From positions 1 to 59,216 of IMG/VR virus record IMGVR_UViG_3300024040_000027: a DNA stretch of 59,216 nucleotides; one strand, 5' to 3'. This document shows positions 18,855 to 59,216 of this stretch, one piece after another; within the stretch, counting starts at the first letter, position 1; each line of letters starts with the position of its first letter. This DNA is from a virus (Duplodnaviria; Caudoviricetes). Below the pieces are notes generated by a model. It did no database searches, was not told the origin of the DNA, and was given only the letters and a program-made list of their open reading frames with translations. The position numbers and the translations under genes were made by a program.

Positions 18855-19006
18855 GTCATCAGGCGAGCCGACCTCGGCCCCGGTATCAATGATCCGGGGC
18901 GCCGAAAGGTAGAGGCGGCTCGCCTGATGGCGAATGCGCGGACTGACGCGCCCAGCGCTTGGGCTGGTGGCACAGGGCCAAAAACCAAGCTGACACCGAC
19001 GCCATC
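18855..19006 (+). ncRNA. Structured RNA in late leader region
   Basis: 14-bp stem 18857-18870/18916-18929 enclosing two hairpins; second stem GATGGCG/CGCCATC with a GAATGCGC..CTGA.GCGC hairpin like that at 16648. Confidence 0.55.
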
Positions 19007-19014
19007 GTAGATTC

Positions 19015-19045
19015 AAGCCTCGCTATATGCGGGGCTTTTTGTTTT
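19015..19045 (+). terminator. Intrinsic terminator (tR'-like)
   Basis: AAGCCTCGC-TATAT-GCGGGGCTTTTTGTTTT. Confidence 0.75.
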
Positions 19046-19166
19046 CCGGGCAGCGCCACGCGAACGCATGGCGCGCCTCATTCCGTGTCTCCCCTCAGTA
19101 GCCGAGCAATTGGCTGCTTTTGGCCTTGCCGCTTCACTGCGGTGGGGCTTTTTTATATCCGGCGCT

Positions 19167-39384: not shown

Positions 39385-41033
39385 ACCTACTTGGAGCATT
39401 GGGCGGCGTTGGCAAGGGCGTGATGGTCGGCGCGGAAGAGCTTCGCCGTCAGGACGAGGCCGATCGGCGCAAGGAATTGGCGCGGCAGCAGCAAGAGGCG
39501 TATGCCCAGCAAAAGGCATCGGATGAAGCCTACTCCGAGGCACGTAAAGCCATCGGCACACGCAAGCTGGATACGGCGGCGCCGAACTATGCGGCGACCA
39601 ATGACGCCGCTCTGGAATTGGCGCAGCAGGCTCCGTATGGCGCCAACGGCGTTGAATTCGACCCGAACAACGAAGCTCACGCCAGCTATGCCAAGTTTCT
39701 GACCGGTGCCAGCCAGGCGATTCCTCAGACCAAGGCAGTCTCGGCGGCCGATGCGGAGCGCAACTTTGCGGCCAGCCCGCAGGCCACGGCGAGGGATGCG
39801 CGCGCCGCCACCGATCGTGCGTATGCACTGGATGCCGCCAGCGCAGCCGAAATCGACCGCAAGACAAAGGCCGATATCACTGCTGTGCAAACTGGCACGA
39901 TGAAGCTGATACGGCTCAGAGAGATCGGCTTGCTTTCCGACGATGAGGCCATCAAGCAGCTGCAGGAATTGTCACGGGTGATCCCGAATGGCTACGAGCT
40001 GGTGGATGGCGTGGACGAGAACGGCACGCGGACGCTGACCTATGGAGGGAATGGCGTTACGCAATTCTCTGTTCCGCGCACCAAAAAATCTATCGACGAC
40101 ATGCTGCAGGGTGTTCTGGACAACAGCAGCGTCGAAATGATGTCAGCAGCACTCAAGCGCAAGCATGAGGCTGACGTTCTGGCGGAAACGACTCGGCACA
40201 ATCAGGCGGTTGAGGCCGTGCAGGCGAAAAATGCCGATACCAATGAAGCGTATCGGCGCGATATGGCTGGAGCCGCCGCGCTGAGGGCCGGTGGAGTCCG
40301 TGGCGCAGGCAATGCCAAGGAACTGGCGGCGGAGGTAAAGACCAATGCGCAGCTCTATTCGTACACGCCGCTGAATGGCGAAAAGCCGATTGAGCACATT
40401 GCGGCAAAGTCGCTGTACTCCAACATGATCAAAAACCCGAAGATCGGGCCGGAGCAGGCGTACAGCGTGATGGCGCAAATCAAGGACGAAGCGGAAAAGC
40501 AATCCGTCGACCCCAAGACCGGCGCAGTCGATCCGATCAAGTTCCTGCCTATATTCGACGGCATGGTGAAGCGGGCGGATGACGCCATGCGCAAAAGCCA
40601 GCAAACCGCGAAGCCATCTGCAGCTGCCAAGCCTCCATCCGCGACTTCGGCTCCCGCTACCTCCCAGGTTCCGGCAGCCGCCGAAAGGAAAGCTATTCCG
40701 GCACCTGGCGGCGTGCGCCCGCCCAGCGCTCAGCAGGTGGCCATGAATGCTCCACCTCCAAATATCGGCGGCGTATCGACTGCCGAGAGAGATAGGCGGA
40801 TTGCGTTGATGAACACGTTGAGCGGCACATCTACGAAGCGGCACCAGGAAGGCATTGCGAGGCGCGATGCGGATGTTGCTGCCAATTTCGATTCGATGCT
40901 TGCCAACATCAGGCGAGGCATGACGCGCGCCGAGGCGCTAAAAACGCTTGCGTGGTTCGAGGATAACAATGGCTCGCTATCCAATCAGCAGCGCAAGCAA
41001 TTGAGGGATGCGCGACGCGCAGCTGGCTTGTAG
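39381..41033 (+). CDS. Internal virion/ejection protein
   Basis: GALGGVGKG N-terminus, ETTRHN motif, Ala/Gln-rich. Confidence 0.7.
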   Translation: MNLLGALGGVGKGVMVGAEELRRQDEADRRKELARQQQEAYAQQKASDEAYSEARKAIGTRKLDTAAPNYAATNDAALELAQQAPYGANGVEFDPNNEAHASYAKFLTGASQAIPQTKAVSAADAERNFAASPQATARDARAATDRAYALDAASAAEIDRKTKADITAVQTGTMKLIRLREIGLLSDDEAIKQLQELSRVIPNGYELVDGVDENGTRTLTYGGNGVTQFSVPRTKKSIDDMLQGVLDNSSVEMMSAALKRKHEADVLAETTRHNQAVEAVQAKNADTNEAYRRDMAGAAALRAGGVRGAGNAKELAAEVKTNAQLYSYTPLNGEKPIEHIAAKSLYSNMIKNPKIGPEQAYSVMAQIKDEAEKQSVDPKTGAVDPIKFLPIFDGMVKRADDAMRKSQQTAKPSAAAKPPSATSAPATSQVPAAAERKAIPAPGGVRPPSAQQVAMNAPPPNIGGVSTAERDRRIALMNTLSGTSTKRHQEGIARRDADVAANFDSMLANIRRGMTRAEALKTLAWFEDNNGSLSNQQRKQLRDARRAAGL

Positions 41034-41079
41034 CCGGAATCTGCCGACCGACAAAAATCACAAAAAACAAGGATCCTGA

Positions 41080-44000
41080 ATGCCCGCATTAGACCAACTG
41101 AATACCCTTCTGTCCGCTCCAGACCCCACTCCGGGTTCCGAGCTTGACCGCGGGGGTGTGCTAGAACAGGCGCTCAAGCTGGAGGGCGTTGACGGTCAAT
41201 TGGCGGATGTCGCCCGCAGCGTGTACCAGCAAGAGTCCGACAGTGGCCGCAATGCCAAGACTTCCAATGCTGGCGCTCGTGGCGGCATGCAGATTCTGCC
41301 GGCCACGTTCAACGAGGTGGCGGACAAAGGCTGGAATATTGATGACCCTCTGCAAAACGCACGCTCCGGTATCCGCTATCTGAAGCAGCGATACGAGCAG
41401 GCTGGCGGCGATCCGGTATTGGCCGCTGCTGGCTACTACGGTGGTCCTGCTGGACTGGAAAAGGCCCGGCGCGGGATCGCAACGGCGGATCCGCGCAACC
41501 CGAGTGCCCCGAATACGCTGCAGTACGGGCAGCAAGTGGCGGCCCGGCTTGGTGGCGCGAGCGCGCCGCAGGATGAGGAAGGGAATACCGCCTATGTCGA
41601 TGGCATTCTGAATGCCGCATTGTCATACAAGGCGCCCGAGCCAGAAAAACCAGCTGTCGGCGTCATGCGGACTATAGGCGACACTGGGATTAAGGTTGCG
41701 CAGGGTGTAGTCGACCTTGGCGCGTCGGCGGTTGGACTTGGCAGCCTTGCCACAGGCGGCAAGATTGGCGAAGGCATGCGCGCGCTCGGCTACGACCCCA
41801 AACGCACCAATGAAATTCTCGGCGAATACCTGAGCGACAGCCAGAAAGCGTCTGATGCAAAGGTTGCGGAGGCCGACGGCTTTGTCGATGCGATTGTGGC
41901 TGGCGTCGAGAACCCGCGTTCGATTTTGGGCGGCATCGCGCAATCGTTGCCCGGCATGCTGATGGGCATGGGTGTGTCCGCCGCGCTGGCCAGCAAAGTC
42001 GCCGCCAAGGCCGCGCTGGCTACCGTGGAGGGCCGTGCAGCGGCTCAAGCGGCGCTGGCAGCCGGAAAATCGGCGTCGCAGGCAGCAGAGGCGGCTGTGG
42101 CCACGACCGCAGGGCGCACGGCGGCAACGGCTGCGATCGAGTCTGGCGGGACCAAGTTTCTGGCGGCTGGTGCGGCGACCGAGGGCGCGCAAAGTGCCGG
42201 GCAAATTGCCGACGACGCGCAGGCGTCTGGGCGAAAGTATGGCGACTATGCGCTTCCGGCGCTGGCAGCCGGCGCTGGAACTGCGGCGATCGGCTTTGGC
42301 GCCGGGAAGTTGATGGGCGACGCCGCCACCGAGATCGCGACCGGCGCCAAGTCGGCCGGCGTCAAGGGCGGGATGGCGGCGCGTGCTGGTAAGGAGTTCC
42401 TCAGCGAGGGCGTGCTGGAAGAAATGCCGCAATCGGCTCAGGAGCAATTTTTCACCAACATTGCTCAGGGCGAGGATGACCTGGGCAAAGGAGTTGGCAA
42501 TGCAGCAGGCACCGGCCTGCTGGTCGGGGGCGTCCAAGGCGCTGGCATGGGCGCGCTGCAGCGCCGCCATACGCCGACGGTAGTTCCTGACACTGGCGTG
42601 TTGTCGCGCGCGGCCAATGCGGGGCAACAGGCTGTGGCCGACAAACTCAACGCGCAGCCGGAGGTTGATCCTGGCGCGCCGCTGCCGTTTGAAAAAGTAC
42701 CGATCACGCCTCCGGCACCGGCCGGGCTGTCGCTGGAGCAGCCGGCAGAGCGCGATCCGAACAGCATCGACTTCACGCCGGAAACCGCTGCGCCATCCGC
42801 CGTGGGGCTGGAAAACCTGCAGCGTTATGGCTCAAGCGGGTTTGTCTCCAATGACCTTGACGCCCTGCGGCAATATGTCCTTCGCCACAAAGAGGGCGGT
42901 CATGACTTTTCGATCATCCCGCATGTCAATGGTGGCTATACCGTTGCGCCGACCGATCGCCTGACGCCGTTCGTGCTGGATGCTGTGCGGCATTTGCAGC
43001 CGGATGCCGCCGCGCAAGATGCGCAAACCGGCACGCCGGCACGCAGTGCCGAGCAGAGCGCACTGGCAGAGCAGGAAATCCGCCGCAGCATGTCGGCTCC
43101 GACCGGTATTGGGGAGTTGGGGCAGTTGGAGCCGGAGCGACAGGAACAGGTGCCGCAGAAAACCGAATCGAACTTTGCCAAGGTAGACGAGGCGATTGCG
43201 GCCGGCTACAAACTACACGGCAAGGTTTTGGTCAGCCCGAACGGCAAGCCATACCGCCTGAATCAGGAAGAACTGGCCTATTTCAAAAAGGCAGAGCAGG
43301 CGGCCGCGACCAATGCTGCCGCCCGTGCTGCCGCCGAATCGGTCCCGGCGGCACCCGCCGTATCCGCACCGATGGATGCGGAGCCGGAGTTCACGACGAC
43401 AAAAGACCTATACGGCAAAACCGTAACGGTTCGCACGGCGGACCTGAGCGGAAACCGGAATAGCCTGCAGCTGTATTCCAAGGCGGGGAAGCAGATTCCC
43501 GGCAGAATCGCCCGTGAAAACCTCGACCCGACCGGCGAGAAGCTGGCGGCCAACAATGCGGCAAATGCGAACAATCCGTTTCTGAACGTCATCACGACCA
43601 AGGACGGGAGGGCGTTCAAAAGCAAGATCGTCGCCGGCCGCGAGATGAACCGGCGCGGTTTGTCCGCCACGCATGAAGTGGTGCCTGCGTCCGAGGTGTC
43701 GCCGAATGCCAGCGGGTATGTGGTGCGGCGCATGAGCGCCAAGACGCTGGGGGAGCAGATCGATTCCGCTGCGCACGAGGCCGCCACCAGTCCGCAAAAC
43801 GACATTCCAGAGCCGACCGATGCGCAGAAGGAGGCCGGCAATTACAAGGTCGGCCGCATCAAGCTGCATGGTCTGGATATCTCGATCGAAAATCCCGCAG
43901 GATCCGTGCGCTCTGGCGTCGATCGCGACGGCACGCCGTGGGAAAACGAGATGCAGCACCACTATGGCTACATCCGGGGGACGGTCGGGGCGGACAAGGA

Positions 44001-47000
44001 TCACATCGATACTTTCATCGGCCCGAATCACGAGAGCGACAAGGTATTCGTGGTCGATCAGGTGCATCCGGACAGCGGCAAGTTCGACGAGCATAAGATA
44101 GTTCTTGGCGCAAATAATTTAAGCGAAGCCAAGGAAATTTATGCCGCGAATTACGCTGTAAATTGGCGCGGCGGAAAAAGTATTAGCGAATTAAGTATCG
44201 ATGACTTCAAGAAATGGCTTAAAAGCGGCAACACGAAAAAAGCATTTTCAAGCGTCGATAACTCCGTTTTTAACAAAGGCTTTTCTAATACTTGGGGCGC
44301 TGACACCAAGGGATCGACCAATGCTCAGCATGGACTCTCCAGCCCTGTAAAGGATGACGGCTTTATCAAAGTCCCACTTGGTAGTGCCGTGTCTGAGATC
44401 GGTCGTGGGAATTCCTCTGGCGGCGAATCCGTTTCTGATGGCGGCGTAAGTAACTCCAAATTTGGCGGCGATTCTGTCAAAACTCCAGCCGGAGTTTCTG
44501 AGCAAAATGGCCTCGTCGAGGCTCCACTTCAGTCCAGAAAGATGGATGGCGACATGCTCCCGCTGGGTCATGATCGCAAGGTTTTCGATGGCGTTGTTAA
44601 GCCCATTCCCGTCGATGTGGTGAACAACCTCGGACCTGGTAAGCGGCCTTCCGATGTGAGCCTCCATGACAACCCTGTGCTCAAACCTTTGCCTTCTGAC
44701 GCCATTGACGGAAACACTGATAAGCCGGTAGGAAGTCCCGTGGGCGGGGAAGGTCCTGACGTGACCTCCAGTAGAGGGTCTAGCCATAGTAGCCCCATCG
44801 AATTAAAACCCAATGATACCACTGATGCATCTATTTCAGGTGGTTCATTACGCGATGAAAAAGATGCGACCCAAATCCCACCCGGACTGGCCAAGGCTCG
44901 TGCATTGCGCGACAGGAAAAAGGCGGAACAGTTCGTTGCCGCTCCAGATGGATCGCTTCAGTTCGGCGAGATAACCCAGGACGTGGCTCAAAAAGCCAAG
45001 CGCCAGGCCGGAGAGATTCGCCTACAGCAGGGCAATGCCGAGTTTGGCCTGATCCATATCGAGCAGCGCCACGGCGATCAAATCAGGGCCGCTGGGTTTG
45101 AAAGCGTTCCGGAATTCTTGGCGCATGCGCTGAACCACATTGACAGCATTTGGCAGCCGAACAAAACGTCACAGTTAGTGGCGATTCAAGTCGAGAATGG
45201 GCGGTCTGCCGTCTTTGTGCAGTTGAAACCATCTGAGGATGGAGATTTCTACACAATCAATACGGCATTTCCTGCCGGCAAGGACTACGCGGAGAAAAGG
45301 AAGGGGTGGAAAGAGCTTTGGAGCAGGGTTCCCGTTCCCGCTGAGGCGTCCGGCGCGCCATCCCATTTCGCTGAACCTGCCCAAGATGCCGGAAAGCAGG
45401 CCACGATGGAATCAGGCCAAAGCAAGGGAGATGATACGCTCTCGGCAGGGGAAGGCAAATTTTCTCAAGGTTTGGCTGCGGGCCAGAGCGATTTGCTTGC
45501 GTCGTCGCCAGAGCAGAAAAGCAGCGTGGACGTGCCTGCCGCCGTTCCTCCAGGTTTGGCAAAAGCCCGCGCATTGCGCGATCAGAAGCGTGCCGAGCAG
45601 TTCGTGCCCGCCCCGGACGGATCGCTGAATTTCGGCGAAATTACGCCTGAAATAGCTAAGCAAGCGAAGCGTCAAGCCGGGAAAATCAGGCTGCAGCAAG
45701 GCGTCCAAAATCCGGATGGTACTGGATACGGGCGGGTACACATTGAGGCAAACCACGGGAAAGAAATTCTAGCGGCCGGATTTTCTGGAGTGGAGGATTT
45801 TGTCGCCAGCGTTGCCAGGAATTTTAATCAGGTGTGGCAGGCAACCAAAACACGACAACTTTTAGTTGCTGTGCGAGGCTCACGACAAGATGTCATGTTT
45901 GTTCAGTTGGAGCCGATGGAAGGCGGCGACTACTATCGCGTGAATTCAGCCTTCCCGGCACAAGCGGCGTATTTCGGGAGGCAAGAGAGAAAGGGAATCA
46001 AGAAACTCTGGGATGGGAGCGAACCCGCATCCGTTGTCACTGGACAACAACCCGCATACGCTGCTGAAACACCTGATAGCACGTCCAGTCAGGGCAGCCC
46101 CACCGCTCGCGGCCAGAGTGGCCACAGTGTAGCAGAGGCTGCCAAGGTAGAGAAGCCGCTTTCCGCATCCATCGGGCCCAATGGCGCACCTGAAAAAACA
46201 GGAACTCTTAATCCCAGAGAACAAAGCGGCGAATCAAGTGTAGCACCGGAGGATGAGAAAGGTGCCGAAAATGCCGAATTGGAAAATGCACTGGCGCACC
46301 TTGGCGACGTGCTGGGCGATGTATTTGGCGCCAAACTGAACGCCACCGGCCAGCAGCACACGGCAGGCGCATTGCTGCCGGCACTGTCGAGGGTGATTGA
46401 GCTTCTGGTGAAGAAGGGCGCCCGCTCTTTCCGTGACGCGCTTACCGAGTCGGTCAAAGCGATGCGGGGGAATGCCGCGGTTGCGCCGCATCTGGACGCG
46501 ATCAGCGCGCGCCAGTGGAAGGCCGCCTACAACGCGATTGCCGATTTCCATGATGGCACCGATAGCGAGGAAACCGTAGCGGCCATCAGCGCGGATGACG
46601 TGCGCGATATGGTCGCTTCGGCAGCAGGCCAGTCGCAAGAAAAGAACGGTACGCAGGAGGGAGAAAAGACCGACGAGCCGGAGCCGAAAACTGAGGTGGC
46701 AGAGGTTGGCGTTCGTGACCAGGACGTAGGCACTGTCGAAGATATTGGCCGAAGGAGTTATGCCAGCGGCTCGCCTCGCGTGGCGCCCGGCGGGCTTTCC
46801 GGGAGTAATCAGAAGAAATGGTACTCCGGATACGACAGCGCCAAGCAGGAAGCAGCGGGGAAGGCCAGCGAAAATCCGGAGAACAGCGCCGCGCCTGAAC
46901 ATGTCGCCGCCAGAGCAGACAGCCGCGATCAGGCTGAGCGCGAGATTACGCGCCAGCTCAATGAGCAGTGGAGCGCGCAGACCGGCAGCGGATTCGCCAT

Positions 47001-48201
47001 CGGGAAGCATTACCCAGCGACCATCCGCTTGAATGGCAACGAGCGCAATCTCGGGCTGTTCAAGAAGAAAGACAGCGGCGTTCTGTATGCCGAGGCGCTG
47101 GACGAAACCATGTACGGCCCGGTGTTCACGCAGTACAAAGTGACGGCAGACGGCAAGCTGGAAGAAGTTGGTACGCGCCGCCTGTTTGGACTTGACAAGG
47201 AGCCTGCCAAGCAAGCGGTTTCTGAATTCAACGCGCTGTTTGAGCAGCCGGCACCGGCTACCAATGAGGCCCAGCCCGAGCACGCCGAGGCGCCCGCAGA
47301 GCAGGCCACCCCAGAACTCACCAGGCAACAACTGAATCGGCTGTCCGTCAAGGATATGACGGACGCACAATTGCTGCGCGCTCTCGCCGAATTGCCGAAG
47401 CGCACCAAGCCGATCCAGAAGGAAATCGGGCGCCGTGGGCTAAATTCGGAGGAAAGCGCGCCAGCTCCAGCACCATCCGAAAGCAAGCCGGCCACGGCCA
47501 ATCAAGAACCCGTCAAGAACGTCGAGCCAGAACTGGCACCGGCTGCGGCCGAGGCGGCGCCTGCGAACCATGCTGCGGTGAAAGTGCCGCAGAGCGTCGA
47601 TGAGGCATTGACGGCAGACATGACGAAGCAACAGGCGCGCGTGAAACGTTTGCGCACCGCCGCAACTGCGGACGGCATGACGCTGGATGAAAAGACGGCC
47701 GCCCAGCTTAAGGTGACGGCCGCCGAAGCCACGCTGCGCTCGATGCGCATCAAGCGATTCGACGCCGAGGATGCCGTCGAGAAGGCTGTGGCAGACAAGG
47801 ATGCGCGGGCTTTTGCTGAGTTCGCTGACCTATTCCCGTCCGCCGCGCAGGCGCTGCAAGTGCTGGTTCCTGCCACCGAGTCGCCAGCGGTGGAGTCGGT
47901 GAGCCGGCTCACCCAGGCCCGCAACGACCTGATTGAAATGCGTACCCAGGCCGAGGAACAGGGGCGGGTTGCCGATGATCGCCTGTTGTCCAGGATTCGC
48001 CGACAAGAAGCACTTATCAAGGAACTGGAAACAGAGCAGTCGGAGCCATCGGCTGGCGCGCAGGAGGAAAGCGCGTTGCGCCAGCTGTCCGACATCATGG
48101 TAACGGTTGGCGGGCAAGAGCAGCCGGCGTCGGTTGCGCTTGCTGAAGCCGACGAGAAAATTACCTCTCTGAAGGATCTGCTTTCGTGTTTGCAAGCCTG
48201 A
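41080..48201 (+). CDS. Giant polyvalent virion protein: SLT transglycosylase, inorganic-pyrophosphatase-like domain, two BECR-like nuclease domains
   Basis: QQES...GARGGMQILPATF; PTDAQKEAGNYK...YGYIRGTVGADKDHID...FDEHK; two G..HI...H domains. Confidence 0.85.
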   Translation: MPALDQLNTLLSAPDPTPGSELDRGGVLEQALKLEGVDGQLADVARSVYQQESDSGRNAKTSNAGARGGMQILPATFNEVADKGWNIDDPLQNARSGIRYLKQRYEQAGGDPVLAAAGYYGGPAGLEKARRGIATADPRNPSAPNTLQYGQQVAARLGGASAPQDEEGNTAYVDGILNAALSYKAPEPEKPAVGVMRTIGDTGIKVAQGVVDLGASAVGLGSLATGGKIGEGMRALGYDPKRTNEILGEYLSDSQKASDAKVAEADGFVDAIVAGVENPRSILGGIAQSLPGMLMGMGVSAALASKVAAKAALATVEGRAAAQAALAAGKSASQAAEAAVATTAGRTAATAAIESGGTKFLAAGAATEGAQSAGQIADDAQASGRKYGDYALPALAAGAGTAAIGFGAGKLMGDAATEIATGAKSAGVKGGMAARAGKEFLSEGVLEEMPQSAQEQFFTNIAQGEDDLGKGVGNAAGTGLLVGGVQGAGMGALQRRHTPTVVPDTGVLSRAANAGQQAVADKLNAQPEVDPGAPLPFEKVPITPPAPAGLSLEQPAERDPNSIDFTPETAAPSAVGLENLQRYGSSGFVSNDLDALRQYVLRHKEGGHDFSIIPHVNGGYTVAPTDRLTPFVLDAVRHLQPDAAAQDAQTGTPARSAEQSALAEQEIRRSMSAPTGIGELGQLEPERQEQVPQKTESNFAKVDEAIAAGYKLHGKVLVSPNGKPYRLNQEELAYFKKAEQAAATNAAARAAAESVPAAPAVSAPMDAEPEFTTTKDLYGKTVTVRTADLSGNRNSLQLYSKAGKQIPGRIARENLDPTGEKLAANNAANANNPFLNVITTKDGRAFKSKIVAGREMNRRGLSATHEVVPASEVSPNASGYVVRRMSAKTLGEQIDSAAHEAATSPQNDIPEPTDAQKEAGNYKVGRIKLHGLDISIENPAGSVRSGVDRDGTPWENEMQHHYGYIRGTVGADKDHIDTFIGPNHESDKVFVVDQVHPDSGKFDEHKIVLGANNLSEAKEIYAANYAVNWRGGKSISELSIDDFKKWLKSGNTKKAFSSVDNSVFNKGFSNTWGADTKGSTNAQHGLSSPVKDDGFIKVPLGSAVSEIGRGNSSGGESVSDGGVSNSKFGGDSVKTPAGVSEQNGLVEAPLQSRKMDGDMLPLGHDRKVFDGVVKPIPVDVVNNLGPGKRPSDVSLHDNPVLKPLPSDAIDGNTDKPVGSPVGGEGPDVTSSRGSSHSSPIELKPNDTTDASISGGSLRDEKDATQIPPGLAKARALRDRKKAEQFVAAPDGSLQFGEITQDVAQKAKRQAGEIRLQQGNAEFGLIHIEQRHGDQIRAAGFESVPEFLAHALNHIDSIWQPNKTSQLVAIQVENGRSAVFVQLKPSEDGDFYTINTAFPAGKDYAEKRKGWKELWSRVPVPAEASGAPSHFAEPAQDAGKQATMESGQSKGDDTLSAGEGKFSQGLAAGQSDLLASSPEQKSSVDVPAAVPPGLAKARALRDQKRAEQFVPAPDGSLNFGEITPEIAKQAKRQAGKIRLQQGVQNPDGTGYGRVHIEANHGKEILAAGFSGVEDFVASVARNFNQVWQATKTRQLLVAVRGSRQDVMFVQLEPMEGGDYYRVNSAFPAQAAYFGRQERKGIKKLWDGSEPASVVTGQQPAYAAETPDSTSSQGSPTARGQSGHSVAEAAKVEKPLSASIGPNGAPEKTGTLNPREQSGESSVAPEDEKGAENAELENALAHLGDVLGDVFGAKLNATGQQHTAGALLPALSRVIELLVKKGARSFRDALTESVKAMRGNAAVAPHLDAISARQWKAAYNAIADFHDGTDSEETVAAISADDVRDMVASAAGQSQEKNGTQEGEKTDEPEPKTEVAEVGVRDQDVGTVEDIGRRSYASGSPRVAPGGLSGSNQKKWYSGYDSAKQEAAGKASENPENSAAPEHVAARADSRDQAEREITRQLNEQWSAQTGSGFAIGKHYPATIRLNGNERNLGLFKKKDSGVLYAEALDETMYGPVFTQYKVTADGKLEEVGTRRLFGLDKEPAKQAVSEFNALFEQPAPATNEAQPEHAEAPAEQATPELTRQQLNRLSVKDMTDAQLLRALAELPKRTKPIQKEIGRRGLNSEESAPAPAPSESKPATANQEPVKNVEPELAPAAAEAAPANHAAVKVPQSVDEALTADMTKQQARVKRLRTAATADGMTLDEKTAAQLKVTAAEATLRSMRIKRFDAEDAVEKAVADKDARAFAEFADLFPSAAQALQVLVPATESPAVESVSRLTQARNDLIEMRTQAEEQGRVADDRLLSRIRRQEALIKELETEQSEPSAGAQEESALRQLSDIMVTVGGQEQPASVALAEADEKITSLKDLLSCLQA
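44248..44787 (-). CDS. HNH endonuclease with two HTH-like repeats, nested antisense within the giant gene
   Basis: EHRVVME..IGRPL..SEVVHHIDGNGLNNAIENL...EH..IH. Confidence 0.85.
   Translation of the reverse strand: MARPSTGGHVRTFPAHGTSYRLISVSVNGVRRQRFEHRVVMEAHIGRPLTRSEVVHHIDGNGLNNAIENLAIMTQREHVAIHLSGLKWSLDEAILLRNSGWSFDRIAAKFGVTYAAIRNGFAARGIPTTDLRHGTTKWDFDKAVILYRAGESMLSIGRSLGVSAPSIRKAFVKNGVIDA
45315..45423. ncRNA. Structured element 1, 3' of first BECR-like domain
   Basis: GCTTTGG/CCAAAGC closing stem; inner stems GGTTCC/GGAATC, GGCG/CGCC, CCTGC/GCAGG. Confidence 0.55.
46005..46119. ncRNA. Structured element 2, 3' of second BECR-like domain
   Basis: ACTCTGG/CCAGAGT, GAGCG/CGCTC, GTTGTC/GACAAC, GCTGC/GCAGC, CCTGA/TCAGG. 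Confidence 0.6.
46155..46230. ncRNA. 76-nt cloverleaf element within CDS
   Basis: GCCGCTTT/AAAGCGGC closing three hairpins CCAT/ATGG, CCTG/CAGG, CTCT/AGAG. Confidence 0.5.
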
Positions 48202-48240
48202 TAATCGACGCCACCTAATTTCTACGACACAAGGCCGACA

Positions 48241-51200
48241 ATGGGTTCTCCTTCGCTCTGCTTATCGCAAAATCCGCTCGGGAAACACCGCAAGGAGTTT
48301 GATGAGAAGGTTGCCGAGGTCAAGGCTCTGGATGAGGTCGGATCACAGCAGGCGCATGTGGTGGCAGCGCAGATCATGCTGAGGGAGGCCGAGGAAAGCC
48401 GCGCGGCCATCGTGGCGCAGATCAATGCCAATGCCAAGCGCGACGGCTATGCGGTTGACTGGGCAACTTTTGCACAATCGTTGAATCACGCTACACTTGA
48501 CACGGGATTACAACATGGTGGTGACGATGGACAGAGCAACGCTGGCGATGATGGCGCGCAAGCATTGGGCCGAGTGGCTGCCGCAAAAGACCGAGGATCT
48601 GAAGGAATCCGGCAGTCTGAACGAGGAAATTCAGGCGGCGGCCGCAGCGGCGCAGAAGTGGATTCAGGAGCTGATGGCGAGCGGCTACCAGGAGCACGAG
48701 GCCGCAGAAATGGCGCTGGCCAGGTACATTCTTCTCAAGCCGGAAGAGTCAGAGGACGACTGGGAGAGCCGCGAACTGGCGGAGATGGAAGCGGAGTACC
48801 AGGAAATGATGCGGGAGCCGGAGGATCCGGACGATCCGGAGTCGTAAGTAGCGCGCCGAATATCCCGGCGCAGAATTTCCGCATCACCGACGACGTGCGG
48901 CTGGGCCAGGGTGGCGAAGTTGAGAAATTCAACGACAACCTGCGGGCGATTCGCACGCTCAAGCAGATCGAGGCGGAAGGCCGGCGCGCAACGCCGGAAG
49001 AGCAGGCCATTTTGGCGCGCTATGTCGGTTGGGGTGGCCTTGCCAATGCCTTCCCTGACCCGCTGAGCGGGACATTCAAGGAGGCATGGTCCAAGCGCGG
49101 CCCGGAACTGGCCGCGCTGCTGACGCCAAAAGAACACCAGATGGCCGGCCGCTCGACGCTGGACTCGCACTACACCTCGCAGACGGTGGTCAACAGCATG
49201 TGGGCGGCCGCCGCGCGGCTTGGTTTCAAGGGCGGCATGGCCCTGGAGTCGTCGATGGGCGTCGGCAACTTCCTGGGTTTGATCCCGGAATGGCTTTCTG
49301 CCAACACCAAATTTGTCGGCGTCGAATACGACAGCCTGACATCGCGTATCGCAGCCTTGCTGTACCCGCAGGCCACCATCCTTAATTCCGGCTTCCAAAG
49401 CGTGCCGCTTTCGGATGGGTCATTCGATCTGTCGATTGGCAATCCGCCGTTCGGCAACCAGTCGCTGCGCTTCCAGTTCAAGCCCGAGCTGAACGCGCAC
49501 TCGATCCACAATCAATTCTTCCTGGCGTCGATCGATGCCGTGAAGCCTGGCGGCCTGCAGATTCAAGTCGTGTCGCGCTACCTGATGGATGCGGTGGATA
49601 CGAGCGCACGCGCGGCGCTGGCAAAAAAAGCCAAATTGATTGGCGCAATCCGCTTGCCAGATACCGCATTCAAGGAAAATGCGCGCACCGAAGTGGTGAC
49701 CGACATTCTTTTCTTGCAGCGATTGACGGCCCAAGAGCAGGCCGAAATGGAGGCTGCATTTGCCGCCGCACGCCAGAAAAAGGAGAAGAACTACCAGGCC
49801 GAACAAGAGCGGCAAGCCCTGGCTGACCGAGTGCCGAGTTGGGTGAACTCGACCAAGGTGCCGGATCCTCTGGGCGGCGAGCCGATGCAGATCAGCCGGT
49901 ATTTTGCCGATCATCCAGAGATGATCATGGGGACGCTGGAGCGCTCCGGGTCAATGGCGCACGGCAACGATATCACCGTGCGACTGGATAAGGGCGAGAG
50001 CTTGGCCGGCATGCTCGACGCTGCCATTTCTCGCCTGCCAGAAGGCGTGATGCGGCAGGAGCAAAGCGCGATCGATGCATCAATCGCGCGCCATCAGGCG
50101 ATGTCGGATGCCCTGCATATCGCCATTTCCGGGCAAGAGCAGGGCGCAATCACGTTTGATGCCGATGGCAACCTGCAGCAGGTTTTTGAGCGAGAAACGC
50201 CCAACGGCGACTTTGAATTGGCCAAGCGCACGCTTTCCGCGACATCGCCGTGGTCTCCTGAGTTGTACCAGAACGACAAGGGCCAATGGTACAAGATCGA
50301 GGCGGTGCTCGACGAGGCCGGCAAGCCGGTCAAGCAGCAGGTAAAAAACTCGATTACCGGGGAGGTCAGGAGCACCAACAAGAATGTCTACGGCCGCGTG
50401 GTATTCGAGAAGGAATCCGACATTCCTTCCGGTTTGTTACTTGGAGCGGAGAAATTCAAGCGCCTGAAGGCGCTGGTCGGGCTTCGCGATTTGTTGTCCG
50501 ACCAGTTGAGCATGGAGGCAGAGGATGCCGGCGCAGCGCAGATCGAGGGCAACAGAAAGGCTTTGAAGGAAGCCTATCAGAAGTTCGTCAAGGACAGCGG
50601 TTACATCAACGAGCCGGCCAATGCTGCGCTGGTTGCCAATATGCCTGATGGCGCGCTGGTGCTGGCACTCGAACTGCAATACCGCCCGGCGATCAGCGCG
50701 GCCAAGGCAGCCAGGATCGGGGAAAAGGTACGCGGCGCATCGGCGACGCCAGCCCCGATCTTGTCCGAGCGCGTGATCATGAAATATGAGCCGCCCACCA
50801 GCGCCGCATCGCATGCTGACGCGCTGGCGATCGCAATGGCCGAATCTGGCCGGGTGGACATGGATCGTATCGCCAGCCTGCTTGGCCGCCCGACCGAGGA
50901 TATCAGCGCGGAAATGCTCGGCGCGGACAAGCCAATGGTATTCAAAGATCCGGAAAGCGGCGAGATCGTTGACCGCAATGAATACCTGTCCGGGCAAGTC
51001 AAGCGCAAGCTGGAAGCGGCGCGCAACGCCGGCCTGTCGAAGAACGTCGAGGCGCTGACTGCAGTTCAGCCGGAGCCGTGGGGTGCAGAAAGTGTTACTG
51101 CGCTGCTTGGTTCGACTTGGGTACCGCCCGCAGTGTACGAGGCTTTCATCGCCCATATCTCCGGCGGTAACCCGCGAGTCAGTTTTTCCAGGCTGACCAA

Positions 51201-54200
51201 TAGCTTCACGGTAACGAATGCTTCTCGCATCAGGGCCAATGAGGAAGAGTGGGGCACTGATGATGTGGCATCGGCCAGCATCATCAATGACCTTCTCAAC
51301 AGCCGCGCCGTCAAAGTCACCCGCACGGATAGCGATGGCAAAACCTACGTCGACCAGGAAGCTACGGCGCTGGCGCTATTGAAGGCAAAGGCCATCAGTA
51401 ACGAATTCAGCGACTGGGTATTTGCTGATTCCGACCGGCGTAACCTGCTTGTCGATACCTTCAACGAAAAATTCAATACCCGCGTCAATCGCCAGCATGA
51501 CGGTTCGCACCTGCTCCTGCCGGGGAAGGTGCCGGACATGATTATCAAAATGCGCCGGCATCAAAAAAATGCGATATGGCGTGGTATTTCAGAGCGATTC
51601 ATGCTGCTGGATCACATTGTTGGTGCCGGCAAGAGCTTTACGGCAATCGCGCGCGCGATGGAGCGTCGGCGCATGGGCCTGTCAAAAAAGCCGGCGATCA
51701 TCGTGCCGAACCACATGGTTCAGCAATTCACGTCCGATGCCTACCGGCTGTATCCGGGCGCAAAGGTACTGGCCGCAACCAAGCGCGATTTTGAAAAAAA
51801 GAACCGCCGCAAGTTCTTTGCAAAGATCGCCACCGGCGACTTCGACATCGTGATCATCCCGCATTCGTCGTTCGGCTTCATCGGCATTTCTCCTGAAACC
51901 GAAGCCCGATACCTGGAGCAGGAATTGGAAGCGGCTGAGGCGGCGATCAAGGATGCGCAGGCCGCAGCGGATAAAGAGGGCGGAGGCGGATACCGCAAGC
52001 CGTTTGGCGTCAAGGAGGCTGAGCGACTGCGCGACAAGATCACCGCGCGCATGGACAAGATCAGGGGCGCCGATAGCAAAGACCGCCTGCTGACCTTCGA
52101 GCAAATGGGGATCGACGATTTGACCGTCGATGAGGCCCACGAATTCAAAAATTTGTTCTACAGCTCGCGCCTGACGAACGTCATGGGCATGGGGAACAAG
52201 GAAGGCTCGCAAAAGGCATTTGACCTGTACAACAAGGTTCGGGTGCTGCGTGACTCTCCGAAGGGCACCGTTACGTTCATGACCGGTACGCCGATCTCGA
52301 ACAGCGCGGTGGAAATGTACACCATGATGCGCTTCCTGGCCGCCAAGGAATTGGACGAGTTGGGGCTGAGCCACTTTGACGCATGGCGCGCGCAATTCGT
52401 GTCCACTGACGCCGACTGGGAGCAGAACGAAACGGGGCGCCTGAAGGAGGTCAATCGGCTTGGCCGCACATGGTCGAATATGCGTTCGCTGATGGACCTG
52501 TACTACTCCTTTACCGATTCCGTCAGCAACGACGACATCAAGTCCGCCTATGCCGAGGACAACAACGGCGCGCAGTTCCCGATTCCGAAGGTGAAGGATG
52601 GCGATCGGCAGTCGGTCGTGGTGCAGCCGACCGAGGCCCAGTTGTCTCTGCTGAACCATATCATTGAAGAATTTGACGCTCTGCCGAGCATCAATGACCC
52701 GCGCGAGCGAAATATCCGACGCCTGAAGCTGAGGGACAGGGCTCGAAAGGTATCGCTCGACGTGCGCGCGGCCGACCCGACCAACCCCAGTGACGAGCAG
52801 GGAGGCAAGCTCGACAAGTTGGCGGCGGAAGTTCACCGGATTTACCAGAAATGGGACAAGGATCTCGGTACTCAGCTGATTTTCCTTGACCGCTCTGTTC
52901 CAAAGGCGAAGGGCGACGACAAGACACTGAAGGAATATGACGCTCTGCTGGCCGAGCAAGGCAAGGCGTTGGCGGACGGCGACGAGGACGGTCTACGCCG
53001 TGTCGGCGAAAAGCTGGAGAAATACGACTCCAACGAAATGGCCGAAATGCGCAGCGCGCAGGCGGGCGGATGGAATGCGTACCAGCAAATCAAGGACAAC
53101 TTGATGGCGCTGGGCATCCCGTCCAGCGAAATCCGATTTATTCAGGAAGCCAACAACGACGCGCAGAAGCAGGCCATGTTCGATGCCGTCAATGACGGCA
53201 GCGTGCGCGTCCTGATCGGTTCGACACCGCGTATGGGTGCCGGGACCAATGTGCAGCAGCGTCTGGTGGCGCTGCATCACGGCGACGTGACGTGGAAGCC
53301 ATCCGACATCGAGCAGCGCGAAGGCCGGATTATCCGGCAGGGCAACATGCTGCTGGATAAGTACGGGATCGACAAGTTCGAAGTCGAGATCCTGGCTTAC
53401 GCGACCGAGCACACCATTGATGCAAAAATGTGGAGCCTGAATTCCTCCAAATTGAAAACCATCAACGGCATCCGCAAGTACGATGGCGCATTCTCGATGG
53501 AATTTGAGGATGCGGAATCGGTCAGCATGGCCGAATTGGCGGCGCTGGCATCGGGTGATCCGCTGCTGCTGGAGCGGGTCAAGCTGATGTCGGAAATCGA
53601 CAATCTGAACCTGCTGAAGCGTCAGCATGCCCGCAAAGAGTGGGGCATCATCAGCCAGATCGAATCTGCAGAGAAGGCGATCGCCCGCATCCCGGCCGCG
53701 ATCTCCGCTATGGAGACGGATATCGAGCGGCTGCGCGCGGCGCACGCGGCGGTAGAGGCCAAGGTTGCGGCTCGCGAAATTGACATCGAGGGCAAAACCT
53801 ACAGCACGCCAGAATCCGCCAAACTGGCGGCGCATGCAGCGCAGCAGGCACAGCAGAACGGCGATGACAATGCCAAATTCTCGATCAGCGTCAATGGCCG
53901 CCGGAAATCGACGCAAAACACCTATCTGGACGAGATCAGCCACGTTTTCGGAGACACCAAGCCATTTGAAATGGTGGTGAACGACGAGCCGTACATTGGT
54001 CGCACGGATGCTGCGCGCCTGCTGGCTGAAAAATCGAGTGAGATTGCCGGGGCTCTTGGAAAGGGCGGCGAGGAATCCATCAAGATGGGCACCTACATGG
54101 GGTTCCCGCTTGAACTGACGGTTGGCCGTAGCAGTCACTTCGATGCGTTTTATGCGACGCTCTCCCTGTTGCGCGAGGATGGCAGTACCTTGGCATCCGC

Positions 54201-58701: not shown

Positions 58702-58824
58702 ATGGGCAAAATCAACTGGGGCGGCGCGGCGGTGTTGCTGGGCCTGATCGCGCTGGCGGTGGCGGTTCCGCTGCTGGCGCTGCCGATCGGCGTGGGGCTG
58801 GGTTATCTATACTGGAAAAGCTGA
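58702..58824 (+). CDS. Small hydrophobic protein (40 aa)
   Basis: Manual translation MGKINWGGAAVLLGLIALAVAVPLLALPIGVGLGYLYWKS; GGAGG RBS; coupled at both ends. Confidence 0.6.
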   Translation: MGKINWGGAAVLLGLIALAVAVPLLALPIGVGLGYLYWKS

Positions 58825-59216
58825 TGGCCGAAGAACGAAAACCGCTCCTTGCCGCTGGAGGCATCCGGCCCGCAAAGTCGGAAAAGCTGCCGAGCGACGA
58901 TGACATGGCCAAGATGACGTGGAATGATCTGTACCAGCTACGGGTCAAGGCGCGCGGTAATCCGGAGGCCCAGGCGGCGATTGCGCCGTATGAGCATCGG
59001 GCGTATGCGCGTGAAGAGGTGGCAAAAAATCCGCTGGCCGCGCCGGCTTGGGTGGTGATGCCTCCCGCCTATCAGGCGGCCAAAGCGGCCGGCCTGACGG
59101 ATAGCGATGACATGAGTTCGCCGGCCAGCATGAAGCAAGTGGCGCAGGGGCTTATCGGCGTCGCGGAAGGCGTTTCTGAAGGATCGCGGCGGCTATTGCG
59201 GCGCGCAGCTGAGTAA
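58824..59216 (+). CDS. Hypothetical protein
   Basis: TGATG coupling; IAPYEHRAYARE motif. Confidence 0.7.
   Translation: MAEERKPLLAAGGIRPAKSEKLPSDDDMAKMTWNDLYQLRVKARGNPEAQAAIAPYEHRAYAREEVAKNPLAAPAWVVMPPAYQAAKAAGLTDSDDMSSPASMKQVAQGLIGVAEGVSEGSRRLLRRAAE

What the first reader, a model, noticed from the sequence alone, without database searches (positions are those of the whole stretch)
44875..46140. Repeated module inside a giant virion gene: BECR-like nuclease domain + covarying structured RNA + candidate antisense promoter
Seen: two paralogous nuclease-like domains (G..HI...H core) are each immediately followed by a 109-115-nt element of the same architecture (closing stem, inner stem, CCCGC, hairpin, CCC..CGCTG, CCTG/CAGG hairpin). 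The closing stems differ at two compensating pairs (GCTTTGG/CCAAAGC vs ACTCTGG/CCAGAGT), all at third codon positions, including Leu CTT/CTC matched by Gln CAA/CAG. Each element is followed by a minus-strand promoter-like signal: TTGCCT-N16-TATCAT at 45458..45431 and extended -10 TGCTACACT at 46134..46126. Known: BECR-fold (barnase/EndoU/colicin E5-D/RelE) domains occur in phage polyvalent proteins, and type III TA systems pair RNases with RNA antitoxins. Inference: a nuclease-plus-cognate-RNA unit (antitoxin, substrate or autoregulatory site) hidden in coding sequence and duplicated as one block. I know no description of this. The functional strand is unresolved; a G-U pair slightly favours plus.
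Basis: partly seen in the sequence, partly recalled or inferred. Interest (0 to 1): 0.9.

Follow-up and report, generated by a model that had tools for sequence, protein, structure and literature searches.

The report
Hidden RNA genes inside phage gene
The DNA that follows each copy of a nuclease-like domain in a giant phage virion-protein gene also appears to carry, written backwards on the other strand, a small folded-RNA gene with its own promoter, and dozens of distant phages keep this pairing, so the protein domain and the RNA probably travel and work together.

Summary
The 2373-aa ORF (41080-48201) has two paralogous PBECR-like domains. Each is followed by a 109-115-nt element (45315-45423, 46005-46119).

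**Structure.** Homologues from IMG/VR, MAGs and metagenomes show a conserved fold: a 7-bp closing stem, an inner stem, and two hairpins whose loops pair.
- 28 sequences, MAFFT alignment: 86% of cells paired against 28-46% when the partners are slid.
- 39 sequences, model-fitted alignment: 87% against 31-41%.
- No shuffle out of 500 reached the observed covariation.
- The Leu3/Gln3 pair is the only one of 13,841 third-position column pairs to covary this way, and it switched about 8 times.
- A non-coding solo copy keeps the pairing by changing TGG/CCA to TAG/CTA.

**Strand.** The evidence favours the minus strand.
- A.C outnumbers G.U on the plus strand.
- 32 of 39 elements have TGnTAnnnT 6-10 nt upstream on the minus strand (4% expected).
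- Bacteroidota-type homologues carry that phylum's -7 box TAnnTTTG instead (27 of 32), and their folds need minus-strand G.U pairs.

**Best reading.** These are small antisense RNA genes nested in coding DNA and co-inherited with a nuclease-like domain. A cognate inhibitor RNA is my preferred function, but it is untested.

**Weak points.** No transcript has been shown, and folding energy is no better than synonymous shuffles. Rfam and my literature searches hold nothing like it.

The parts
41080..48201 (+). Giant virion/ejection-type polyvalent protein gene (2373 aa) that hosts the units
   Evidence: Open frame. Pfam SLT at aa 43-131 and InPase at aa 914-1048. PHROG DarB-like antirestriction. 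It lies after the SU10-like portal, capsid and tail-fibre genes.
44875..45321 (+). Domain copy 1 (subtype B), PBECR-like, ends in Leu-Trp
   Evidence: 53% identical to copy 2 over 156 aa. Profile match to A3 at E=4.6e-99. No Pfam, PHROG or NCBIfam hit.
45315..45423 (-). Element 1 (subtype B), 109 nt. P1 is 45315-45321 with 45417-45423. Loop-loop pairing is CCGGC 45350-45354 with GCCGG 45388-45392.
   Evidence: Sequence read. Matched by model R1 at 26.2 bits, E=6e-05. Helices supported across homologues. The minus-strand assignment is inferred.
45431..45458 (-). Promoter-like site for element 1: TTGCCT-N16-TATCAT. The -10 ends 7 nt before P1.
   Evidence: Found by the scan. The position class is conserved in 32 of 39 elements.
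45541..46011 (+). Domain copy 2 (subtype A), PBECR-like
   Evidence: AlphaFold2 model with pLDDT 93. Best PDB fold match is the BrnT RNase toxin, E=0.07, prob 0.93.
46005..46119 (-). Element 2 (subtype A), 115 nt. P1 is 46005-46011 with 46113-46119. Loop-loop pairing is CTGGA 46040-46044 with TCCAG 46084-46088.
   Evidence: Sequence read. R1 score 121.5 bits. Covariation in subtype A.
46126..46134 (-). Extended -10 TGCTACACT, 6 nt before P1 of element 2
46155..46230 (-). Element 3, a mini cloverleaf of 76 nt with no domain in front. The closing stem is GCCGCTTT with AAAGCGGC.
   Evidence: Folds. Relatives of the same short class are L076:1885-1962, L162:1435-1512 and L166:1318-1404. First noted in earlier scan note e1-6328312.
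46237..46245 (-). Second exact TGCTACACT, 6 nt before the closing stem of element 3

Best explanation
Each unit is a small RNA gene written on the minus strand inside the codons that follow a PBECR-like (RNase-toxin-like) domain of a giant phage polyvalent/ejection protein.

**How it is built.** A host-type promoter is embedded in the codons of the peptide S-[VI]-A. In betaproteobacterial phages it is the extended -10 TGnTAnnnT. In Bacteroidota phages it is the -7 box TAnnTTTG. Transcription would start at or 2-3 nt before the closing stem. The RNA (about 76-135 nt) folds into a junction closed by a 7-9-bp stem, with hairpins whose loops pair with each other. The same DNA still encodes a tolerant, low-complexity linker peptide on the plus strand. 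The unit stays physically linked to the domain, so the two are likely to move together when domains are shuffled.

**What is shown.** The conserved, covarying structure. The conserved promoter-like motif that changes with the host. The linkage to the domain. The persistence of the structure in a non-coding solo copy.

**What is inferred.**
- That the motif fires and a discrete RNA is made (about 0.75).
- That the RNA is the cognate partner of the domain on the opposite strand. I favour a folded, tRNA-sized pseudo-substrate or inhibitor that protects lysogens and producer cells from the nuclease, in the manner of a type III antitoxin or an immunity factor (about 0.3). A plain cis-antisense silencer of the giant mRNA is the main alternative function (about 0.3).
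For: **Structure**
- Of 13,841 pairs of third-codon-position columns in 30 domain-plus-tail copies, only Leu3/Gln3 has at least 90% Watson-Crick pairing with at least 5 sequences in the minor type. It scores 29/30 (16 T-A, 13 C-G).
- Its state changes 9 times on the domain tree.
- Subtype A, MAFFT alignment A6 (13 sequences): 92.1% of cells paired against 27-39% slid; 14 of 32 pairs changed on both sides; 0/500 shuffles as high.
- MAFFT alignment A4 (28 sequences): 86.0% against 28-46%; 16 of 22 pairs changed on both sides; covariation score 0.380 against 0.161 (0/500).
- Model-fitted alignment A7 (39 sequences): 86.9% against 31-41%; 27 of 32 pairs.
- The loop-loop helix covaries: CTGGA/TCCAG, CCGGA/TCCGG, CCGGT/ACCGG, CCAGC/GCTGG, CTTGG/CCAAG.
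- Pairing is kept where the protein changes or is lost. L121 has ACTTTTT/AAAAAGT (W to F, Q to K). Solo copy L150 has ACTTTAG/CTAAAGT, with a TAG stop and two 1-nt deletions.
- The Leu before Trp is CTY in all but two of the copies examined (L070 CTG, L075 CTA), although CTY is only 31.5% of Leu codons in the same genes.

**Strand and promoter**
- Plus-strand A.C against G.U cells: 58 to 25 (33 to 15 in well-supported pairs) on A7, and 30 to 19 on A4.
- The structure conservation index (SCI) for subtype A is 0.76 on minus and 0.54 on plus.
- 32 of 39 elements have TANNNT ending 6-10 nt before P1 on the minus strand, against 4.4% expected; 16 also have TG at -15/-14.
- This motif uses the rare codons GTA or ATA, which make up 11% of Val and 8% of Ile codons in the same genes.
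- The homology of the solo copy begins exactly at its TATATT.
- Bacteroidota-type homologues carry TAnnTTTG at the same place on the minus strand: 7 of 9 and 20 of 23, with 0.18-0.19 expected per 210-nt stretch. The plus strand has it in 0 of 9 and 1 of 23. A review passage gives TANNTTTGY as the Bacteroides -7 consensus (PMC12632263, passage read).
- Their consensus folds rest on minus-strand G.U pairs, for example AU:11/GU:11, UG:20 and UG:23. In group C the closing stem is followed by UUUUUUAUU in 8 of 9 sequences.

**Linkage**
- R1 hits lie only behind the domain, apart from the solo copy and one element in L076 that sits upstream of the domain.
- 84 of 113 domain occurrences among the stored representative proteins carry the tail peptide.

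**Generality**
- The PBECR3 domain of the next giant ORF is followed by an element with 22 of 29 identical codons at conserved residues, against 10 of 48 in the domain body. A TTGAC -35 is conserved within a variable linker.
Against: - **No transcript is shown.** The only run that holds the region is kept as contigs, in one 20.9-kb piece, and says nothing about strand, ends or even RNA versus DNA.
- **Folding energy is unremarkable.** On either strand it is no better than dinucleotide shuffles or synonymous-codon resampling: z from +0.6 to -0.5, and -0.2 to -2.4.
- **No clean terminator.** None follows the betaproteobacterial elements; there is only a pyrimidine-rich run.
- **Promoter weaknesses.** Most units lack a -35. 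Seven of 39 lack the -10 motif.
- **Both strands can fold.** Every Watson-Crick helix can form on either strand. The A.C over G.U count is not phylogenetically independent. For subtype B the SCI is equal on the two strands, 0.36 and 0.33.
- **Alignment bias.** Alignment A7 was fitted to the model.
- **Helix H1.** It is not supported at a fixed register: 65% paired against 61% slid.
- **The domain is not confirmed as a nuclease.** There is no family hit. Foldseek gives E=0.07. hhalign against PBECR3 gives probability 0.25%.
- **Function.** Nothing tests binding or inhibition.
Confidence: 0.7

Rival explanations
1. The RNA is made from the minus strand but is a plain cis-antisense regulator, like lambda OOP. 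It pairs with the giant late mRNA and triggers its decay or blocks its translation, for example to silence leaky expression in lysogens. The fold would serve only stability and pairing kinetics, with no contact to the protein domain.
For: - The promoter and strand evidence is the same as for the best explanation.
- Perfect complementarity to the mRNA is a given.
- The promoter resembles a host housekeeping type, which fits expression in a lysogen.
Against: - An intramolecular loop-loop helix covaries strongly. Antisense RNAs normally keep their loops free to make first contact with the target.
- The elaborate junction is conserved while the sequence drifts.
- A solo copy survives in a host chromosome 360 kb from the prophage, with no overlapping target gene.
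- Extra domain-less units lie in tandem.
Confidence: 0.3
2. The structure works in the sense mRNA. It could be a ribosome pause that lets the domain fold, a stability element, or an autoregulatory binding or cleavage site for the nuclease domain just translated.
For: - All Watson-Crick helices also form on the plus strand.
- The element is always in frame and directly behind the domain.
- The plus strand shows some G.U pairs, 25 cells.
Against: - A.C outnumbers G.U on the plus strand.
- In Bacteroidota-type homologues many predicted pairs are G.U on minus, which would be A.C mismatches on plus.
- This reading does not explain the conserved, host-specific promoter motif on the minus strand.
- The solo copy is untranslatable yet keeps the fold and the TATATT box.
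- Unpaired positions are C-rich on the plus strand, at 34%.
Confidence: 0.12
3. The element acts as single-stranded DNA on the minus strand. It could be a priming or replication signal, a recombination site, or a hairpin promoter, rather than an RNA.
For: Covariation cannot tell RNA from ssDNA. The strand asymmetry would fit a specific DNA strand equally well.
Against: - The motif next to it follows the host's RNA polymerase consensus and switches between phyla.
- Group C has a U-run after the closing stem, like an intrinsic terminator.
- The many G.T pairs would be weak in DNA.
- I see no replication or recombination gene linked to the units.
Confidence: 0.05
4. There is no nucleic-acid function. 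The similarity would come from a conserved peptide tail, plus GC3 drift, shared ancestry and chance complementarity. Or the element is a selfish in-frame palindromic insertion, like Rickettsia palindromic elements or MITEs.
For: - The tail peptide is conserved.
- Five of the 7 P1 pairs are fixed by the Leu-Trp and Gly-Gln-Ser codons.
- Folding energy is not exceptional.
Against: - The all-pairs control uses the same sequences and so carries the same GC3 and phylogeny, and it singles out the predicted pair, 1 of 13,841.
- The pair switched about 8 times with no intermediates.
- Amino-acid changes on one strand are compensated on the other.
- A stop-creating change is compensated in the solo copy.
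- The element is not dispersed. In 5 whole genomes there is at most one per prophage, plus one solo copy.
Confidence: 0.02

Closest known systems
Phage lambda OOP RNA and similar phage countertranscripts (recalled, not read here; named as closest known in earlier scan note e1-6201332)
   Same: A short RNA made from its own promoter on the strand opposite a phage protein-coding gene, lying wholly inside that coding sequence.
   Different: - Here the RNA has a multi-helix junction with an internal loop-loop helix.
- It is conserved as a structure across phyla.
- It is tied to one protein domain, occurs in tandem and as solo copies, and sits in linker codons of giant virion proteins.
Type III toxin-antitoxin systems (ToxIN, TenpIN, CptIN). 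Abstracts seen in the search listing.
   Same: A possible pairing of an endoRNase-like protein with a folded, pseudoknotted non-coding RNA encoded right beside it.
   Different: - Type III antitoxins are tandem direct repeats upstream of the toxin on the same strand, and the toxin processes them.
- Here there are single units, downstream, on the opposite strand, nested in the coding sequence.
- No inhibition has been shown.
PBECR domains of polyvalent proteins (Iyer et al. 2017, PMC5512222; passages read)
   Same: - Context: a giant phage protein with SLT and InPase domains, next to a DarB-like protein with PBECR3.
- A His-bearing helix followed by strands, with a conserved S/T.
- The nearest language-model clusters carry PBECR1 or PBECR3.
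   Different: - No PBECR Pfam model matches, and hhalign against PBECR3 is not significant.
- A text search of the paper found the words antisense, linker and 'RNA structure' 0 times.
Three-way-junction RNAs with kissing hairpin loops, such as purine riboswitch aptamers (recalled)
   Same: The topology: a closing stem with two hairpins whose loops pair.
   Different: - No sequence or Rfam match.
- The element is larger and has an extra inner stem or a fourth arm.
- It is not in a 5' leader, and no ligand is implied.
Rickettsia palindromic elements and MITEs inserted in frame (recalled)
   Same: A unit of about 100 nt with inverted ends that is translated as part of a host protein.
   Different: - It is not repeated or dispersed.
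- It is ancient and diverges along with the domain.
- It has a promoter-like motif and internal covariation.

Membership tests
BECR / PBECR fold RNases | [quoted passage not shown] | tested here: inconclusive
   The AF2 model (pLDDT 93) has helix 64-78, then strands 97-100, 107-112, 117-125 and 131-141. The best PDB match is the BrnT RNase toxin 3u97 at E=0.07, prob 0.93, TMt 0.58. No hit reaches E<=0.001.
BECR / PBECR fold RNases | [quoted passage not shown] | tested here: met
   H67 and H72 (HIExxHG) are invariant or nearly so in A8. N-[ST]-A is in the last long strand in most copies; L078 has N there instead.
BECR / PBECR fold RNases | Match to a curated PBECR model or to a known member | tested here: not met
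   - Pfam at E<=10: none.
- NCBIfam: none.
- hhalign against the PBECR3 of the next ORF: probability 0.25%.
- PDB profile search: CdiA toxin at only E=0.08.
- Language-model neighbours PBECR1/3 at 0.90-0.93 are a lead only.
BECR / PBECR fold RNases | Metal-independent endoRNase activity | not testable with these tools
   Needs an enzyme assay.
Sigma-70 extended -10 promoter (Proteobacteria) | TGnTAnnnT placed about 7 nt before the start of the transcript | tested here: met
   32 of 39 elements have TANNNT 6-10 nt before P1 on the minus strand, and 16 also have TG, against 4.4% expected. Activity was not tested.
Bacteroidota housekeeping promoter | -7 box TAnnTTTG (consensus TANNTTTGY; PMC12632263 passage) | tested here: met
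   Present in 7 of 9 and 20 of 23 sequences at a fixed offset on the minus strand. The plus strand has it in 0 of 9 and 1 of 23. Expected 0.18-0.19 per 210-nt stretch. The -33 box was not examined.
Cis-encoded antisense RNA (OOP-like; type I antitoxin-like) | A discrete transcript from the strand opposite the target gene | tested here: inconclusive
   Only promoter and fold conservation speak for it. The one RNA-labelled run is held as contigs.
Type III toxin-antitoxin | Antitoxin is an array of direct RNA repeats upstream of the toxin and on the same strand | tested here: not met
   The units are single, downstream and on the opposite strand. There is no tandem short-repeat array.
Type III toxin-antitoxin | The RNA binds and inhibits the RNase | not testable with these tools
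   Needs co-expression and binding assays.
Any Rfam 15 family / tRNA | Covariance-model or ARAGORN match | tested here: not met
   No Rfam hit at E<=10 in 44000-47000. Only chance hits turned up in 8 related loci. ARAGORN found 0 genes.
In-frame palindromic mobile elements (RPE/MITE) | Many similar copies dispersed in one genome | tested here: not met
   R1 run over 5 whole genomes found 0 to 2 copies each, with a single solo copy (in G003) outside the prophage genes. The window holds only 2 hits.

The most novel reading that the evidence does not exclude
Domains of phage and plasmid polyvalent proteins may routinely carry their own partner RNA gene on the opposite strand of their trailing linker. 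That would make two-strand 'protein domain plus RNA' cassettes that shuffle as units.

For the PBECR-like RNase, the partner would be a folded, tRNA-sized pseudo-substrate. It would keep the injected toxin harmless in lysogens and producer cells, and would give immunity against superinfecting relatives. Solo copies captured by host chromosomes, as in the Nitrosovibrio genome, would then be RNA-only anti-phage immunity genes.

Leads in this direction: the unit behind PBECR3 in the next ORF, and an earlier scan note of a similar unit behind an LPD3 domain on other DNA.
Probability: 0.25. Interest if true: 0.95.

Novelty: new variant of a known kind. Interest (0 to 1): 0.86.

Why it matters
- **Gene finding.** If the RNA is made, gene finders and RNA-motif screens miss a whole layer of phage biology. 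Those screens look mainly at intergenic DNA. Here there would be conserved, structured RNA genes written backwards inside 'linker' codons of giant virion proteins.
- **Linker conservation.** It would explain why low-complexity linkers in these proteins are conserved at synonymous sites.
- **Toxin handling.** Polyvalent proteins carry toxin-like domains but have no protein immunity gene beside them. A partner RNA would be a candidate answer to how phages tolerate them.
- **Dual coding.** It would be a rare, clear case of one DNA stretch under selection for a peptide on one strand and a folded RNA on the other.
- **Promoter switch.** The motif changes between phyla, from TGnTAnnnT to TAnnTTTG. 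This is a natural experiment showing which features are essential.
- **Testability.** The unit is compact. One record title names an organism rather than a MAG, Nitrosovibrio sp. Nv4, and it holds both a prophage copy and a solo copy.

Tried and rejected
- **Thermodynamic stability.** Single-sequence folding energy is no better than dinucleotide shuffles or synonymous-codon resampling on either strand. I rejected it as a discriminator, and it counts against a simple 'extra-stable hairpin' reading.
- **Helix H1.** The hairpin right after Leu-Trp looks convincing by eye in several subgroups (GATGGC/GCCATC, GAAGCC/GGCTTC, GAAGAG/CTCTTC). At a fixed register it is not supported, 65% paired against 61% slid. 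I leave it tentative.
- **tRNA or known RNA family.** ARAGORN found none. Rfam found none.
- **Expression.** One metatranscriptome-labelled run holds the region, but as Logan contigs in one identical 20.9-kb piece, which may be the source of the record. It carries no information on strand, ends or whether it is RNA. The two other runs laid only short fragments.
- **Terminator.** No clean U-tract follows the betaproteobacterial elements on the minus strand.
- **Cultured phages.** No DNA match and no protein match among 50,697 phage records.
- **Host order.** The domain was found in 2 of 401 genomes searched.
- **GC3 and phylogeny artefact.** Rejected by the all-pairs control and the tree count.
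- **MITE/RPE.** Rejected.
- **Invertible segment, bypassing, frameshift site, DGR or retron.** I considered these while reading the sequence and dropped them. I saw no direct repeats or conserved slippery site, and no reverse transcriptase turned up among the ORFs I scanned. None was tested further.
- **PBECR3 kinship by profile.** Not significant.
- **Papers.** Searches found no description of such a unit. The preprint 'Coevolutionary mining of prokaryotic non-coding elements with a genome language model' appeared in a listing but could not be opened, so it may bear on novelty. Supplements of Iyer 2017 were not seen.


Full report
**Context.** The window is a whole IMG/VR provirus record of 59,216 nt. 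After the portal (SU10-like), capsid and tail-fibre genes come two giant ORFs. The first is 41080-48201 (2373 aa). It has an N-terminal SLT lytic transglycosylase and an InPase domain and matches the PHROG 'DarB-like antirestriction'. The second is 48241-58701 and has PBECR3 and a weak SNF2 match. These are polyvalent, probably virion-borne proteins in the sense of Iyer et al. 2017 (PMC5512222; passages read).

**Checking the observation.** The two domain copies (44875-45321 and 45541-46011) are 53% identical over 156 aa. The two differing pairs are third codon positions. The minus-strand TTGCCT-N16-TATCAT (45458..45431) and TGCTACACT (46134..46126) are present.

Within the window alone, none of this exceeds chance:
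- The promoter scan finds 1 site where shuffles give 2.2.
- The 9-mer count is at the chance level.
- Rfam and ARAGORN find nothing.
- Folding energies are ordinary against dinucleotide shuffles and against synonymous-codon resampling, z from +0.6 to -0.5.

**The peptide.** Homologues show that the element region encodes a conserved tail. Subtype A reads LW.GSEP..VTGQQPAYA..ARGQS and subtype B reads LWSR.PVPA.ASGA..FAEP..SGQS. Five of the 7 P1 pairs are fixed by Leu-Trp (CTN TGG) facing Gly-Gln-Ser (GGC CAR AGY). A profile of the domain finds 1337 representative proteins at E<=1e-3, mostly 2000-5000 aa long. Among the stored proteins, 84 of 113 domain occurrences carry the tail.

**Covariation.**
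- In 30 distinct copies, the third base of Leu and the third base of Gln are T-A in 16, C-G in 13 and mismatched in 1. There is no U-G and no C-A.
- As a control for GC3 drift and shared ancestry, I scored all 13,841 pairs of third-position columns of the same codon alignment. Only this pair has at least 90% Watson-Crick pairing with at least 5 sequences in the minor type.
- On a tree built from the domain part alone, its state changes 9 times.
- The window's copy 1 and its close relative L074 differ by two double substitutions: GAG CTT/CAA AGC against GAA CTC/CAG AGT.
- The Leu codon is almost always CTY, although CTY is only 31.5% of Leu codons in these genes.

Reading the alignments showed further helices:
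- an inner extension P1b (GAGCGA/TCGCTC in subtype A; GGTTCC/GGAATC or GGAGGC/GCCTTC in subtype B);
- a hairpin H2;
- a hairpin P3 with an extension;
- a 5-bp pairing between the loops of H2 and P3.

Formal counts:

| Alignment | Sequences | Cells paired | Slid partners | Pairs changed on both sides | Covariation score (shuffles) |
|---|---|---|---|---|---|
| A6, MAFFT, subtype A | 13 | 92.1% | 27-39% | 14 of 32 | 0.259 vs 0.123 (0/500) |
| A4, MAFFT, both subtypes | 28 | 86.0% | 28-46% | 16 of 22 | 0.380 vs 0.161 (0/500) |
| A7, fitted to model R1 | 39 | 86.9% | 31-41% | 27 of 32 | 0.442 vs 0.146 (0/500) |

A7 leans towards the model's structure, so the MAFFT alignments are the independent check. 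Model R1 was built from subtype A only. It still finds subtype B elements (17-46 bits), always on the coding strand at the end of the domain, and it finds only two hits in the window.

**Pairing outlives the protein.** In L121 (46% G+C) the closing stem is ACTTTTT/AAAAAGT, so Trp has become Phe and Gln has become Lys. One host genome (G003) holds, about 360 kb from its prophage, a solo copy with no domain. It is 88% identical to the prophage element over 128 nt, and the homology ends about 10 nt outside P1 on each side. It has a TAG in place of TGG and two 1-nt deletions, yet its stem is ACTTTAG/CTAAAGT. The nucleic-acid structure is therefore what is selected. The element is not a dispersed repeat.

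**Which strand.**
- On the plus strand, A.C cells outnumber G.U cells: 58 to 25 over all pairs, 33 to 15 in well-supported pairs, and 30 to 19 on the MAFFT alignment. These counts are not phylogenetically independent.
- The structure conservation index favours minus for subtype A (0.76 against 0.54) and is neutral for subtype B.
- The promoter-like motif is the stronger evidence. In 32 of 39 elements a TANNNT hexamer ends 6-10 nt before P1 on the minus strand, where 4.4% is expected. Sixteen also have TG at -15/-14. The logo reads T/G-G-C-T-A-Y-A-Y-T.
- The invariant positions are T-12, A-11 and T-7, as in a -10 box.
- On the plus strand the motif is the peptide S-[VI]-A, written with the rare codons GTA or ATA (11% of Val and 8% of Ile codons).
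- The solo copy's homology begins exactly at its TATATT.

**A natural control.** Homologues of the domain from Bacteroidota-type contigs lack the LW..GQS tail. They have their own conserved element, and on the minus strand at a fixed offset they carry TAnnTTTG.
- Group C has it in 7 of 9 sequences (9 of 9 if TTCG is allowed), and group D in 20 of 23.
- Only 0.18-0.19 is expected per 210-nt stretch, and the plus strand has it in 0 of 9 and 1 of 23.
- A review gives TANNTTTGY as the -7 consensus of Bacteroides promoters (PMC12632263, passage read).
- Their minus-strand consensus folds have 15 of 42 and 15 of 38 pairs with double changes. They also contain many G.U pairs that would be A.C on plus, for example AU:11/GU:11, UG:20 and UG:23.
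- In group C a cloverleaf closed by GAAACGGU/ACCGUUUC is followed by UUUUUUAUU in 8 of 9 sequences, like an intrinsic terminator.

A motif that tracks the host's RNA polymerase is hard to explain except as a promoter.

**More units.** A 76-nt mini cloverleaf at 46155-46230 has no domain in front of it. It is followed on the minus strand by the same TGCTACACT, 6 nt before its stem. It was first noted in earlier scan note e1-6328312. The same short class occurs in L076, L162 and L166, with covarying hairpins. At conserved residues it has identical codons in 22 of 29 cases, against 10 of 48 in the domain body. A TTGAC -35 and a [CG]ACAAT -10 on the minus strand are conserved in an otherwise variable linker, in 4 sequences. 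An earlier agent of this scan reported a similar antisense RNA gene behind an LPD3 domain on other DNA (e1-6201332). I did not test that one.

**The domain.**
- No Pfam, PHROG or NCBIfam model matches.
- The AlphaFold2 model is confident, pLDDT 93.
- Its best PDB neighbour is the BrnT RNase toxin at E=0.07, prob 0.93. No hit reaches E<=0.001.
- A profile search of PDB sequences gives a CdiA toxin at E=0.08.
- hhalign against PBECR3 is not significant.
- The language-model neighbours are clusters that carry PBECR1 or PBECR3.
- The conserved HIExxHG helix and the N-[ST]-A strand fit the PBECR active-site pattern quoted from Iyer 2017.

'PBECR-like' is a fair working name, not a demonstrated membership.

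**Mechanism.** The fold, its selection independent of coding, the promoter-like motif and the linkage to the domain are shown. Transcription and ends are inferred. The only RNA-labelled run is held as contigs and is uninformative. Function is open. I favour a partner or inhibitor RNA of the nuclease-like domain for four reasons:
- the fold is elaborate and tRNA-sized;
- its loops are occupied by an internal helix rather than left free for antisense contact;
- it persists as solo and tandem copies;
- nesting it in the domain's own DNA would keep the two together through domain shuffling.

A simple OOP-like silencer of the giant mRNA is about equally likely.

**Novelty.** There is no Rfam family. 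Searches found no matching paper. The words antisense, linker and 'RNA structure' do not occur in Iyer 2017. One possibly relevant preprint could not be opened.

Noticed in passing
window 44248-44821, minus strand: A 179-aa ORF with Pfam HNH_3 and a weaker HTH_23 match (below Pfam's cut-off) lies antisense inside the giant ORF, which stays open across it. A minus-strand TGGTATCAT at 44821..44813 precedes its start at 44787. Also noted earlier as e1-6328310.
   Followed up: partly
window 55590-55730 (and L245-L247): The PBECR3 domain of the second giant ORF is followed by a near-invariant element (closing stem CCCCGGTA/TACCGGGG). A minus-strand TTGAC...[CG]ACAAT is conserved in 4 sequences. Synonymous variation is suppressed, with 22 of 29 identical codons against 10 of 48 in the domain body.
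   Followed up: partly
L150:1482-1607 (G003:C2, about 1417150-1417280): A solo, non-coding copy of the subtype A element sits in a host chromosome, between an unknown ORF and a copper-oxidase-like ORF fragment. It keeps its TATATT box and its fold. It could be a captured 'orphan' RNA gene.
   Followed up: partly
L038, L003/L162, L076, and proteins P0006, P0075: Elements also occur in tandem or detached from the domain. In L003/L162 a mini element follows a subtype A element whose P1 has decayed. L076 has a subtype A element upstream of the domain. P0075 has two tails in a row.
   Followed up: partly
L121:1540-1560: The domain frame is broken at an A7 run just before the last strand and continues in another frame through the element. 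This could be an assembly error or programmed slippage.
   Followed up: no
window 40000-59216: A metatranscriptome-labelled run holds the whole 19-kb stretch in one identical 20.9-kb contig. It may be the sample the record came from, and it says nothing about transcription.
   Followed up: yes
window 16355-16800, 18800-19155, 48470-48847, 4005-4619, 1257-2319: Other first-reader notes on this window were listed by the scan index: arrays of tRNA-like RNA modules, an overprinted ORF in the DarB-like gene, a repressor mini-gene, and a protease module. I examined none of them.
   Followed up: no
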